64,000 nucleotides of DNA from Escherichia coli (GTDB lineage: Bacteria; Pseudomonadota; Gammaproteobacteria; Enterobacterales; Enterobacteriaceae): NCBI RefSeq assembly GCF_016903815.1, contig NZ_CP069973.1. One strand, 5' to 3'. This document shows, piece by piece, positions 31,301 through 34,300 of this stretch (positions are counted from its first letter, which is position 1; each line of letters starts with the position of its first letter). The position numbers are program-made.

Positions 31301-34300
31301 GTCACCCCGGTCAGTGATGTTCACGCCGGCACCCGGGAAGTGCAGCGCTTCCGTCTGAATGGCCATGGTCACAGCATGGTTATCACTGACCTGCCCGGGG
31401 TGGGCGAGAGCCGGGACAGGGATGCAGAGTATGAAGCCCTGTACCGTGACATTCTGCTCGAACTGGACCTGGTACTGTGGCTGATTAAAGCCGATGACCG
31501 TGCCCTGTCTGTGGATGAGTATTTCTGGCGACACATCCTGCACCGGGGACATCAGCGGGTACTGTTTGTGGTGATGCAGGCCGATAAAACGGAGCCCTGC
31601 CATGAATGGGATATGGCCGGTATTCAGCCTTCTCCCGCAGAGGCACAGAACATTCGCGAAAAAACGGAGGCGGTATTCCGTCTGTTCCGGCCCGTACATC
31701 GGGTTGTTGCCGTATCGGCCCGCACCGGCTGGGAACTGGATACGCTGGTCAGTGCGCTCATGACAGCACTTCCCGACCATGCCGCCAGTCCCCTGATGAC
31801 CCGCCTGCAGGACGAGCTGCGCACGGAGTCTGTCCGGTCTCAGGCCCGTGAACAGTTTACCGGTGCGGTGGACCGGATATTTGACACGGCGGAGAGCGTC
31901 TGCATTGCCTCTGTTGCACGCACGGTTCTGCGCGCCGTCCGTGACTCGGTGGTCTCTGTTGCCCGCGCGGTATGGAACTGGATTTTCTTCTGAACCCGGT
32001 GGTGATGTACCAGGCTGTTGTTACAGATTTTTAACTCCATGAAAACACTATGCAAACGCAGCCATACCCGGGTTGTCCCCTTGCGTTGTGTTTCTCAAGT
32101 TAATAGAATACATCGATCGTTACTATCATATCGATCGTTATAAACGATCGTTTGTAGTAAATGACCTCCTCCTTGGTTGTCATGAAAATGCGTCTTAGGA
32201 AGGTTAAATAATGCACGAAAAGAACATCGCCCTGCTTTGTGATGAAGCCGACCGACTTTTGCAACTGAACATTAATCTGCTCCGGCAAATGGTTGAGGAG
32301 CCAGATGTGTTATCTGACAGTAAGAACGAAAACAGACTGCTTTTTGATAAACAGAAAGCACTGAAAAGAATTGAGGAGCTGGAGGGCGAACAAATCAAAA
32401 CCGCCCGCAGGGAGATGGTGCTGGCTGTTGTCGGCACGATGAAAGCAGGCAAATCAACCACCATCAACGCCATTGTGGGGCAGGAAATTCTGCCTAACCG
32501 TAACCGCCCCATGACCTCTGTACCGACGCTCATCCGCCACGTTCCCGGAAAAACTGAGCCGGTTCTCCATCTGGAACATATTCAGCCTGTCCGCAATTTA
32601 TTAATCACACTGCAGGAAAAACTCGCCACCCCGGCAGGACAGCAGGTCGCACAGACCCTGCAGCAAACCGGGGATACCCGCGAACTGCTGGATATTCTGA
32701 CGGATGATGGCTGGCTCAAAAATGAATACCACGGGGAGGAGGAAATCTTTACCGGACTGGCATCGTTAAACGATCTGGTTCGTCTTGCTGCGGCAATGGG
32801 GACTGAATTTCCTTTTGATGAATACGCCGAAGTGCAGAAACTGCCGGTGATCGACGTGGAATTCAGCCATCTGGTGGGGATGGATGCATGCCAGGGAACA
32901 CTCACACTGCTGGATACCCCCGGCCCTAATGAGGCCGGACAACCGCAGATGGAAGTGATGATGCGGGATCAACTGCAGAAAGCCTCTGCGGTTCTGGCTG
33001 TGATGGATTACACCCAGATGAACTCAAAAGCGGATGAAGACGTCCGTAAAGAGCTTAATGCCATTGCTGACGTATCAGCCGGCCGCCTGTTTGTACTGGT
33101 CAATAAATTTGATGAGAAAGACCGCAATGGCGATGGGGCAGATGCCGTACGCCAGAAAGTTCCGGCAATGCTGAACAGCGATGTGCTGCCCGCCTCCCGT
33201 GTTTATCCCGGATCCTCACGCCAGGCATACCTGGCTAACCGTGCGCTTCATGAGTTACGGAAAAACGGAACCCTTCCTGTTGATGAAGCCTGGGTCGATG
33301 ATTTTATCAGAGGTGCCTTCGGTTGCATGAAAAAAGAATACGTCTGTAAAGACAGTGAACTGGCAACTGAAGGGGCGACAGACCTGTGGGAAGGCTCACT
33401 TATCGATCAACTGATAACGGAAGTCATACAGAGCTCACATTCCAGAGCTGCGGCACTGGCGGTTGACTCTGCCGCCGCAAAACTGATGCAGAATGCAGAA
33501 AATATCAGTGAATACCTGTTGTTACGCCATCAGGGGCTACAGCAAAGCATTCAGTCACTGCAGTCGCATATCACCAGCCTGCTTGCGGATATCCGGGAAA
33601 TCGCGGACTGTCAGGAGCAGATGACCACTGATGTCAGAATGGCCATGGAGGAGATCGATACTAAAACCCGGGAATTACTGACGGGGGTCTGCACCTCACT
33701 GGAAGAGGAGCTGAATGACTATTTCAGAAGCGGTAAACGCAAAGAACAGCAAATGCTGGAGGAAGAAGACGCAGAACAACGAAGGTCTCAGTCCGGATTA
33801 TGGGGGAAAATTTCTCAATGGTCCGGTATCAACAACCAGGGCCGGGAGGATTACAGGAAACGAGATTTTGCCCCGGACAGCCCCGAAATAAAATTCAGTG
33901 ATCGCAGGGAAGCCCTTGAACTGATGACGCAAATCGAATCGACCGTGACCAGCCTGCACCGTGAGGCTGAAGCACAGTTCCGGCCTGAGCTGGAGAAAAT
34001 CGTCAGCGGGATTGAAACAGGTTTTCGTGGCACGGCCCTGTACGCCACAGAAAACATTGCCGGTCGCATCAATGCCCGCCTGGAGGATGAGGGCTTTACC
34101 GTAAAAATCAGTTTTCCGGCAGTCAGCCAGTTACAGACCCGGCTCGCGGTAAAAATAAATCTGAGTGCGCTTATGGAGGAAAGAACGGAGACCGTCACCC
34201 GTCGCCGTCGGCAGAGTGGCGTATGGGGAACCGTTTGTCGATGGTTTGGCACCAGTGACCTGGGCTGGGAAAACTATGACGAGGATGTGAGTCGCAGCGT

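What the first reader, a model, noticed from the sequence alone, without database searches (positions are those of the whole stretch)
32100..32210. Three clustered GATC sites in palindromic repeats upstream of the dynamin-like operon
Within ~40 bp the sequence reads catCGATCGtta / atCGATCGtta / AACGATCGTT (the last a perfect 10-bp palindrome), giving three Dam target sites at ~15-18 bp spacing just upstream of the operon start. Three closely spaced GATC sites in the control region are the hallmark of the Dam/OxyR phase-variation switch of agn43 (flu). If my recollection that flu follows yeeP in K-12 CP4-44 is right, the operon may have inherited or mimics a phase-variable promoter, giving heterogeneous ON/OFF expression of a potentially toxic module.
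Basis: partly seen in the sequence, partly recalled or inferred. Interest (0 to 1): 0.7.

Follow-up and report, generated by a model that had tools for sequence, protein, structure and literature searches.

The report
Ag43 epigenetic switch driving dynamin operon
The three clustered GATC sites are a true copy of the well-known Dam/OxyR on-off switch of the E. coli antigen 43 gene, here joined directly to a dynamin-like/RdcB-like/phospholipase operon, so about a third of E. coli strains probably express that operon in only part of the population.

Summary
GATC sites lie at 32115, 32133 and 32146, each within CGATCGTT, in the 217-bp spacer between a YeeP-like GTPase gene and a dynamin-family gene.

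The interpretation also holds at sequence level. The spacer is homologous to the K-12 yeeP-flu (agn43) control region. The -10 TAGAAT and all three GATCs align column for column. The 37-bp OxyR operator (32112-32148) matches the OxyR consensus at 16/20 positions, against 14/20 for the K-12 agn43 site, and is the unique best site in the 64 kb.

The flu leader and ORF are absent, so the switch abuts the last 44 bp of the spacer that precedes the dynamin gene in O157:H7, where the order is cah then dynamin. This arrangement occurs in 1,983 of 5,426 complete E. coli genomes.

Across 16 haplotypes, 31 of 217 spacer positions vary, but only 1 of 43 promoter, operator, GATC and Shine-Dalgarno positions (P = 0.006).

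In strain MP1, which has this arrangement, a published transcriptome found the same five genes to be the strongest difference between two isogenic clones, irrespective of medium. That pattern fits ON and OFF phase states.

Phase variation itself is untested. I rate this a new member of a known kind, of moderate to good interest.

The parts
31121..31993 (+). YeeP-like GTPase gene. The switch always lies directly after the 3' end of this gene.
   Evidence: Annotated as 'GTPase family protein' in the identical strain 7/2 record. NCBIfam gives Era/MnmE-type GTPase hits. All 106 switch-like matches in the fetched loci lie no more than 200 nt after this gene's stop codon.
32081..32086 (+). -35-like hexamer TTGCGT, 17 bp upstream of the -10
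   Evidence: It aligns with TTGTCC of the K-12 agn43 promoter, and CTTG is invariant. No variation in 16 haplotypes. It is a weak match, 3 of 6 to TTGACA.
32104..32109 (+). -10 hexamer TAGAAT
   Evidence: Invariant in the window-type, cah-type, K-12 flu-type and Citrobacter copies. Its distance to GATC-I (5 nt) is the same as in K-12, where the annotated 5' end of the flu leader RNA isrC is the G of GATC-I.
32112..32148 (.). OxyR tetramer operator: ATCGATCGTTACTAT-CATATCG-ATCGTTATAAACGAT
   Evidence: It matches ATAGnTnnnAnCTAT-N7-ATAGnTnnnAnCTAT at 16 of 20 positions. It is the unique best site in the 64 kb; the next best scores 13. The K-12 agn43 site scores 14 of 20. Across the 16 haplotypes five of the six variable positions in the operator fall on N or spacer positions; the sixth, 32113, is a consensus position that varies only in MP1.
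32115..32118 (.). GATC-I (Dam site). By homology it is also the predicted transcription start.
   Evidence: the K-12 isrC 5' end.
32133..32136 (.). GATC-II (Dam site)
32146..32149 (.). GATC-III (Dam site), at the centre of the 12-bp palindrome AAACGATCGTTT
32150..32166 (+). Last stretch homologous to the start of the flu/cah leader. The junction is at 32166/32167.
   Evidence: Alignments A1-A3. Similarity to the K-12 and O157 leaders ends at ...AATGACC.
32167..32210 (+). Segment matching the 3' end of the O157 cah-dynamin spacer (one mismatch). It includes the Shine-Dalgarno AGGAAGG (32197-32203).
   Evidence: Alignment A2. The Shine-Dalgarno lies 7 nt before the ATG. A predicted hairpin pairs CCUCC with the Shine-Dalgarno.
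32211..34607 (+). Dynamin-family GTPase gene, a full-length paralogue of CrfC/YjdA/RdcA. It is the first gene under the switch.
   Evidence: NCBIfam NF007368 gives E = 1e-166 but scores below the equivalog cut-off. Annotation.
34604..35509 (+). RdcB-family gene. Its start overlaps the dynamin stop.
35506..36576 (+). Patatin-like phospholipase gene. Its start overlaps the RdcB-like stop.
36712..37821 (+). Two hypothetical genes (36712-37395 and 37411-37821). With the three genes above they occupy the positions of the five-gene cluster that is co-regulated in MP1; the distal MP1 genes were matched by position, not by alignment.
   Evidence: Annotation of strain 7/2. MP1 cluster SID94_19700-19720.

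Best explanation
The 32081-32149 segment is an orthologous copy of the agn43 (flu) Dam/OxyR epigenetic switch. It comprises a sigma-70 promoter (TTGCGT-17-TAGAAT) whose start site and early transcribed region are covered by a single OxyR tetramer operator containing three GATC sites.

As established for agn43, OxyR bound to unmethylated GATCs would repress transcription and shield the sites from Dam (OFF). After replication, Dam can methylate the sites first, which excludes OxyR (ON). Both states are heritable and switch at low frequency.

In this island the flu leader and ORF are missing. The switch is joined at 32166/32167 to the ribosome-binding region of a five-gene operon: a dynamin-like GTPase, an RdcB-like protein, a patatin-like phospholipase and two hypothetical proteins. 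That operon is therefore predicted to be expressed in an ON/OFF, bet-hedging manner.

Shown here: homology, geometry, operator quality, population frequency and the conservation pattern. Inferred: OxyR binding, methylation protection, phase variation, and that this is the operon's only promoter.
For: Position and homology:
- K-12 has yeeP-isrC-flu at the same position.
- The window spacer aligns with it, and with the O157 GTPase-cah spacer. TAATAGAATA and all three GATCs fall in the same columns.

Operator quality:
- The operator matches the OxyR consensus at 16/20 positions and is unique in the 64 kb. The K-12 site, which is experimentally established, scores 14/20.
- The -10 to GATC-I distance is identical to K-12, where the leader RNA starts at GATC-I.

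Other promoters:
- The simple consensus scan does not call TTGCGT-17-TAGAAT. Its only call in the spacer is TTAATA-18-TATCAT, which overlaps the -10 and the operator; its other call lies inside the dynamin coding sequence.
- In O157 the cah-dynamin spacer has neither a promoter-like nor a terminator-like site.

Frequency and conservation:
- The direct arrangement is in 1,983 of 5,426 complete E. coli genomes.
- In an unbiased metagenome sample anchored on the GTPase 3' end, 13 of 13 dynamin-linked copies keep all three GATCs.
- Across 16 haplotypes, 31 of 217 spacer sites vary, but only 1 of 43 functional sites (-35, -10, OxyR consensus positions, GATC bases, Shine-Dalgarno); P = 0.006. That is 2.3% of functional sites against 17% of the other spacer sites and 12% of dynamin third codon positions.

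Experimental hint:
- MP1 island 8 has this arrangement, with three intact GATCs.
- Its five genes downstream of the switch, but not the upstream GTPase gene, are the most strongly differential genes between two isogenic clones in both media, and the difference does not track prophage state (PMC12922286).
- The hyxRAB operon differs between the same clones, and hyxR is known to be controlled by an invertible phase switch (PMC6083910).

The agn43 mechanism is taken from PMC2909390, PMC3764049 and PMC4872104.
Against: - There are no methylation, OxyR-binding or single-cell data for this locus.
- GATC-I to GATC-II spacing is 18 bp, against 19 bp in every Ag43/Cah-linked copy, so the operator is not identical to the validated one.
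- Conservation of the 12 GATC bases alone is not significant in the dynamin-linked set (P = 0.15).
- The -35 is weak, and the simple promoter scan did not call this hexamer pair. It called TTAATA-18-TATCAT, which overlaps the operator.
- The authors of the MP1 study attribute the expression difference to the prophage. Only two colonies per strain were sequenced, and part of the signal is affected by multi-mapping reads.
- Two predicted leader hairpins could add or replace control: the GATC-II/III palindrome, and a helix that sequesters the Shine-Dalgarno.
Confidence: 0.78

Rival explanations
1. Inert relic. The switch sequence was left behind when flu was deleted or never inserted. It no longer phase-varies, or no longer drives anything, and the dynamin operon is silent or expressed by read-through from upstream.
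For: The junction at 32166/32167 looks like a simple illegitimate join with 2-3 nt of microhomology. The 1-bp shorter spacing could have disturbed the operator. The islands are young, so overall identity is high anyway. GATC conservation alone is not significant.
Against: Functional positions vary about 7-fold less than the other spacer positions across 16 haplotypes (P = 0.006). The operator is closer to the OxyR consensus than the validated K-12 site. In MP1 the five genes switch as a block, starting exactly after the spacer and excluding the upstream GTPase pseudogene.
Confidence: 0.1
2. OxyR- and/or Dam-responsive promoter without heritable bistability. Examples would be simple OxyR repression relieved by some signal, or replication-coupled (hemimethylation or SeqA) modulation, as at IS10 or phage Mu mom.
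For: The same sequence features (an OxyR site containing GATCs) underlie non-phase-variable Dam/OxyR control of Mu mom (PMC2909390). The changed spacing might alter the balance between OxyR and Dam.
Against: The geometry is the agn43 one: a single tetramer site over the transcription start, with three GATCs. That geometry is sufficient for bistability in agn43, which is independent of OxyR oxidation state. The MP1 difference is stable across media and clone-specific.
Confidence: 0.08
3. The palindromic repeats act mainly at the RNA level. The CGAUCGUU-AUA-AACGAUCG hairpin followed by a U-rich stretch, and/or the helix that sequesters the Shine-Dalgarno, would attenuate transcription or translation. 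On this view the GATCs are incidental.
For: The terminator-like call at 32132-32150. The leader folds better than shuffles (z = -2.6), and a CCUCC:GGAAGG helix is predicted in all alleles.
Against: The hairpin is simply the dyad symmetry of an OxyR half-site, and the U tract is weak (UUUGUAGU). No compensatory changes support either helix. The same GATC triplet is conserved in flu-type copies that cannot form the 8-bp stem. This rival is not exclusive with the best explanation.
Confidence: 0.04

Closest known systems
agn43 (flu) Dam/OxyR phase-variation switch of E. coli K-12 CP4-44
   Same: The position (immediately after yeeP), the -10 TAGAAT, the start site at GATC-I, a single OxyR tetramer operator with three GATCs, and alignable sequence.
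   Different: The controlled genes are a dynamin-like/RdcB-like/patatin operon, not an Ag43 autotransporter. The roughly 220-nt flu leader (isrC), with its terminator-like hairpin, is absent, so the predicted leader is 96 nt. GATC-I to GATC-II spacing is 18 bp rather than 19. Operator half-site 1 is closer to the consensus (16/20 against 14/20).
cah (calcium-binding Ag43 homologue) locus of E. coli O157:H7
   Same: The same GTPase-switch module. The same dynamin operon lies downstream, and its last 44 spacer bases are near-identical to the window, with one mismatch.
   Different: In O157 the cah leader and ORF (about 3.2 kb) sit between the switch and the dynamin gene. No terminator-like or promoter-like site was found after cah, so the dynamin genes there may be co-transcribed with cah; this is an inference. 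635 genomes have the cah/flu-dynamin junction, against 1,983 with the direct fusion.
Salmonella gtr and opvAB OxyR/Dam switches
   Same: Dam methylation and OxyR compete at GATC-containing OxyR half-sites to give ON and OFF lineages. The cargo is not an autotransporter (PMC2909390, PMC4856963).
   Different: Those switches use four GATCs and alternative activating or repressing OxyR sites upstream of the promoter. Here there is one repressing site over the start, and there is no sequence homology to them.
GTPase-switch-cargo module in Citrobacter braakii and C. amalonaticus
   Same: A YeeP-like GTPase is followed by TAGAAT and three GATCs (19/13 spacing) in the same island family, which also carries DUF932, antirestriction and RadC genes.
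   Different: The cargo is two small signal-peptide proteins (154 and 157 aa). None of this is characterised.

Membership tests
agn43-type Dam/OxyR epigenetic switch | Three GATC sites inside one OxyR binding site | tested here: met
   The GATCs at 32115, 32133 and 32146 lie within or at the edge of the 37-bp operator 32112-32148; the C of GATC-III (32149) lies one base outside it.
agn43-type Dam/OxyR epigenetic switch | Sequence homology and positional orthology with the yeeP-flu regulatory region | tested here: met
   Alignments A1 and A3 place the -10 and all three GATCs in the same columns. The upstream gene and the chromosomal site are the same.
agn43-type Dam/OxyR epigenetic switch | Match to the OxyR consensus ATAGnTnnnAnCTAT-N7-ATAGnTnnnAnCTAT | tested here: met
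   16/20, the unique best site in 64 kb. The K-12 agn43 site scores 14/20.
agn43-type Dam/OxyR epigenetic switch | Operator overlaps the transcription start downstream of the -10, so that OxyR represses | tested here: met
   The TAGAAT-5 nt-GATC-I geometry is identical to K-12, where the annotated 5' end of the leader RNA (isrC) is at GATC-I. The start site in this strain is inferred, not mapped.
agn43-type Dam/OxyR epigenetic switch | OxyR binding blocked by GATC methylation, and Dam blocked by bound OxyR | not testable with these tools
   This needs gel shift or footprinting, and methylation-sensitive digestion or SMRT/nanopore data.
agn43-type Dam/OxyR epigenetic switch | Heritable, reversible ON/OFF expression that is locked OFF in dam and locked ON in oxyR mutants | not testable with these tools
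   There is only an indirect hint. In MP1 the operon is the top differential cluster between two isogenic clones, regardless of medium (PMC12922286).
Ag43/Cah gene family locus (switch plus autotransporter) | The gene controlled is an Ag43-family autotransporter | tested here: not met
   The first gene after the switch is a dynamin-family GTPase. There is no Ag43/Cah similarity in the 6 kb downstream.
pap-type Dam/Lrp switch | Two GATC boxes 102 bp apart within Lrp sites, plus a PapI-like co-regulator | tested here: not met
   The spacings are 18 and 13 bp, and there is no other GATC for 2.9 kb upstream or 620 bp downstream. The defining feature is taken from PMC2909390.
gtr/opvAB-type OxyR/Dam switch | Four GATCs in paired, alternative OxyR half-sites upstream of the promoter | tested here: not met
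   There is only one tetramer-length match. The neighbouring registers score 13/20 or less, and the site lies downstream of the -10.
Known anti-phage defence systems (PADLOC, including Eleos/dynamin LeoA-LeoBC) | Proteins match the system's profile HMMs | tested here: not met
   There are only marginal LeoBC hits (E = 9e-5 for the dynamin, 7e-8 for the GTPase) and a marginal phospholipase effector hit. A defence role for the cargo is conjecture.

The most novel reading that the evidence does not exclude
The Dam/OxyR switch may not be an 'Ag43 promoter' at all. It may be a portable epigenetic expression module, welded to the 3' end of the YeeP-type GTPase gene of CP4-44-family islands, that places whatever cargo lies behind it under bet-hedging control. 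Cargoes seen here are Ag43/Cah, the dynamin-like/RdcB-like/patatin operon, and small secreted proteins in Citrobacter. In about 37% of E. coli it would then make a membrane-remodelling, candidate phage-defence or c-di-GMP-linked operon phase-variable. It would also explain the apparent 'prophage-induced' up-regulation of this operon in MP1 as a clonal phase-state difference.
Probability: 0.5. Interest if true: 0.72.

Novelty: new member of a known kind. Interest (0 to 1): 0.58.

Why it matters
- **Scope of the switch.** In E. coli, Dam/OxyR phase variation is regarded as a property of the Ag43 gene family. Here the same switch is fused to a different five-gene operon in more than a third of sequenced strains, and to yet other cargo in Citrobacter.
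- **Heterogeneity.** If the switch is active, a poorly understood dynamin-like/RdcB-like/phospholipase module is expressed in only a subpopulation. That bears on whether it is costly, defensive or biofilm-related.
- **Practical warning.** Transcriptome and phenotype comparisons between 'isogenic' clones can be confounded by the phase state of this locus. This is the pitfall already documented for Ag43 (PMC3764049). It offers a specific, testable re-reading of the MP1 lysogen data (PMC12922286), whose authors note that regulation of such dynamin operons has not been described.

Tried and rejected
- **Chance clustering.** Random placement of 215 GATCs gives about 1.1 triplets of this tightness per 64 kb. 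I therefore dropped the cluster count as an argument and relied on the repeated 8-mer, the OxyR match and homology.
- **Rfam.** A scan of the whole window found nothing in the spacer and no leader family there.
- **PADLOC.** The operon is not a recognised defence system, so I do not call it one.
- **Terminator call.** The terminator-like call at 32132-32150 is treated as a by-product of OxyR half-site symmetry. It is kept only as a minor rival.
- **Shine-Dalgarno hairpin.** I looked for compensatory changes among alleles and found none.
- **pap-type and gtr/opvAB-type architectures.** Both were rejected on geometry.
- **GATC conservation alone.** In the dynamin-linked set it is not significant (P = 0.15). 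Only the combined set of functional positions is.
- **Direction of the event.** The junction does not show whether flu was deleted or inserted. The 18-bp spacing is exclusive to the dynamin-linked lineage, while Citrobacter and all flu/cah copies have 19 bp, which suggests the fused form is derived.
- **Literature.** Five searches found no paper linking this switch to the dynamin operon. The primary agn43 papers (PMC135096, PMC2838033) and the MP1 supplements are not held.
- **Species-representative genome scan.** The pattern scan found only three hits, because it covers one genome per species.
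Full report
**Observation**

The window is E. coli chromosome, 100% identical to strain 7/2 over the region queried (window 31990-32215). It runs from shiA and three Asn tRNA genes, through cobUST, into an island at the position of the K-12 cryptic prophage CP4-44. It then continues through tmaR-yeeA-sbmC to the his operon.

GATC occurs at 32115, 32133 and 32146. Each site is embedded in CGATCGTT, and the third sits at the centre of the 12-bp palindrome AAACGATCGTTT. 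Start-to-start spacing is 18 and 13 bp.

The triplet alone is not beyond chance. About 1.1 equally tight triplets are expected per 64 kb, and a second one lies inside hisB. The repeated 8-mer is beyond chance: three of its four + strand copies in the window are here. The cluster also follows a 2.9-kb stretch with no GATC.

**What it is**

The sites lie in the 217-bp spacer between a YeeP-like GTPase gene (31121-31993) and a dynamin-family gene (32211-34607). That gene is followed, with overlapping stop and start codons, by an RdcB-family gene and a patatin-like phospholipase gene, and then by two hypothetical genes.

In K-12 the corresponding spacer follows the yeeP pseudogene and precedes flu (agn43), with the leader RNA isrC annotated between them. 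Aligning the window spacer with the K-12 yeeP-flu spacer and the O157:H7 GTPase-cah spacer puts TAATAGAATA and all three GATCs in the same columns.

The -10 TAGAAT (32104-32109) lies 5 nt before GATC-I, exactly as in K-12, where the annotated leader starts at the G of GATC-I. A -35-like TTGCGT lies 17 bp upstream and aligns with the K-12 TTGTCC.

I scored both strands of the whole window against the OxyR consensus ATAGnTnnnAnCTAT-N7-ATAGnTnnnAnCTAT. One outlier emerges, 32112-32148, at 16/20; the next best site scores 13. The K-12 agn43 operator scores 14/20 in the equivalent register.

This is the agn43 switch by descent, not a look-alike.

**How it is joined to the operon**

In O157:H7 the order is GTPase, switch, cah, dynamin. 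The window matches the O157 sequence upstream of cah up to ...AATGACC (32166). From 32167 it matches the last 44 bp of the O157 cah-dynamin spacer (one mismatch), including the Shine-Dalgarno AGGAAGG (32197-32203). The flu/cah leader and ORF, about 3.2 kb, are simply absent, and the predicted leader is 96 nt.

The junction does not reveal the direction of the event. However, the 18-bp GATC-I to GATC-II spacing is exclusive to the dynamin-linked form. All Ag43/Cah-linked and Citrobacter copies have 19 bp, which suggests the fused form is derived.

The simple scan finds no promoter-like or terminator-like site in the O157 cah-dynamin spacer. The dynamin genes there may therefore already depend on the same switch by read-through. 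This is an inference.

**Frequency and conservation**

| Arrangement | Complete E. coli genomes (of 5,426) |
|---|---|
| Switch fused directly to dynamin | 1,983 |
| flu/cah to dynamin junction | 635 |
| flu 5' region present | at least 4,114 |

To avoid ascertainment on the GATCs, I scanned metagenome contigs with an anchor on the GTPase 3' end, which gave 120 loci. They sort as follows:

- 13 are the dynamin-linked type, and all 13 keep three GATCs.
- 89 are the Ag43/Cah type; six of these have lost one GATC.
- 18 have no switch. In most of these the GTPase gene is followed instead by an HTH regulator gene.

I pooled the window with 18 further dynamin-linked copies, five of them from complete genomes, including MP1. 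This gives 16 spacer haplotypes with 31 variable positions out of 217.

Only one of those positions falls among the 43 functional positions: the -35, the -10, the 20 OxyR consensus positions, the GATC bases and the Shine-Dalgarno. The hypergeometric P for one or fewer is 0.006. The one change, 32113 T to A in MP1, recreates the K-12 form AACGATC.

Functional positions vary at 2.3%. The other spacer positions vary at 17%, and dynamin third codon positions at 12%. GATC conservation taken alone is not significant in this set (P = 0.15).

**Portability**

A pattern scan of one genome per species found the same module in Citrobacter braakii and C. amalonaticus. There a YeeP-like GTPase gene is followed by TAGAAT and three GATCs (19/13 spacing), and then by two small signal-peptide proteins, DUF932, antirestriction and RadC genes. 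A third hit, on a 1.6-kb contig binned as a Collinsella genome, carries a cah-type copy after the GTPase 3' end.

All 106 switch-like matches in the DNA fetched lie within 200 nt of a GTPase stop codon. The switch therefore belongs to the island backbone, and the cargo behind it varies.

**Experimental hint**

PMC12922286 compared E. coli MP1 with a derivative lacking prophage Kapi1. A five-gene cluster, SID94_19700-19720, was the most strongly up-regulated in the lysogen in both media. It comprises dynamin, RdcB-family and phospholipase genes plus hypotheticals.

The authors state that the change does not track the lytic-lysogenic decision and that regulation of such dynamins has not been described. 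Methylation and phase variation are not mentioned in the paper.

I located the cluster in NZ_CP139039. It has the window-type arrangement, a 217-bp spacer with three GATCs at 18/13 spacing. The upstream GTPase pseudogene is outside the regulated block.

The hyxRAB operon differs between the same two strains, and hyxR is controlled by the invertible phase switch hyxS (PMC6083910). Two clones differing stably at two loci with phase switches is what clonal phase states would produce. This is the pitfall documented for Ag43 in PMC3764049. The argument is suggestive, not proof: only two colonies per strain were sequenced, and a prophage factor acting through the switch is not excluded.

**Mechanism and rivals**

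The best-supported mechanism is the agn43 one (PMC2909390, PMC3764049, PMC4872104). OxyR on unmethylated GATCs represses transcription and blocks Dam. Methylated GATCs exclude OxyR. Both states are inherited.

I put 0.78 on this operating here. The rivals are:

- an inert relic (0.10);
- Dam/OxyR-responsive control that is not bistable (0.08);
- mainly RNA-level control by the predicted leader hairpins (0.04).

**Cargo**

The dynamin-like protein is a full-length paralogue of CrfC/YjdA/RdcA, with E = 1e-166 but a score below the equivalog cut-off. PADLOC does not recognise the operon as a defence system. Its function remains open.

**Novelty**

Five full-text searches found no paper connecting this switch with the dynamin operon. 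The library lacks most subscription journals, so this is absence in what was searched, not proof of novelty. I classify the finding as a new member of a known kind, the known switch with new cargo. The broader 'portable switch' reading is the most novel possibility that remains open.

Noticed in passing
window 32162-32206: The predicted leader hairpin pairs CCUCC (32165-32172) with the Shine-Dalgarno GGAAGG. It is predicted in all dynamin-linked alleles, and the whole leader has z = -2.6 against shuffles. No compensatory substitutions were seen. It could add translational control.
   Followed up: partly
window 32132-32150: The GATC-II/III region forms a perfect 8-bp stem with a 3-nt loop (CGATCGTT-ATA-AACGATCG) followed by TTTGTAGT, and was flagged as terminator-like. 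K-12 and cah-type copies have only a 6-bp stem. It is probably the symmetry of an OxyR half-site.
   Followed up: partly
L008 3977-5015 (minus strand); L010 931-1337: In Citrobacter braakii and C. amalonaticus the same GTPase-linked three-GATC switch precedes two small signal-peptide proteins (154 and 157 aa) rather than Ag43 or dynamin.
   Followed up: partly
L015, L018, L030, L031, L043, L071, L103, L106 and others (metagenome loci): In 18 of 120 GTPase-anchored loci there is no switch. In 17 of these the GTPase gene is followed by a roughly 234-aa HTH regulator (MTQAERRHDRLAVRLS...), usually with a secreted protein of about 190-210 aa. This looks like an alternative, transcription-factor-based control of the cargo site.
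   Followed up: no
L014, L034, L069, L080, L104, L129: Six of 89 Ag43/Cah-linked switch copies have lost one of the three GATCs. They are candidates for naturally biased or locked variants.
   Followed up: no
window 57232-57252: The only other three-GATC cluster in the window lies inside the hisB coding sequence ([14 protein letters not shown]) and is a chance cluster.
   Followed up: yes
window 29202-32114 and 36325-41810: The island has GATC-free stretches of 2.9 kb and 5.5 kb. This is consistent with the reported under-representation of GATC in mobile elements (PMC4659465), and it makes the triplet stand out locally.
   Followed up: no
window 40731-41104 (cbtA); the island in general: In the identical strain 7/2 record, the cbtA toxin gene of the CbtA/CbeA pair is annotated as frameshifted. 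The island also carries IS100, ISL3 and IS66 fragments and several pseudogenes.
   Followed up: no
L132 (E. coli MP1, NZ_CP139039 4067355-4067571): The MP1 island 8 copy of the switch differs from the window at 32110-32113 (TTAAACGATC instead of TACATCGATC), giving the K-12-like half-site start AACGATC. The upstream GTPase gene is frameshifted there.
   Followed up: yes
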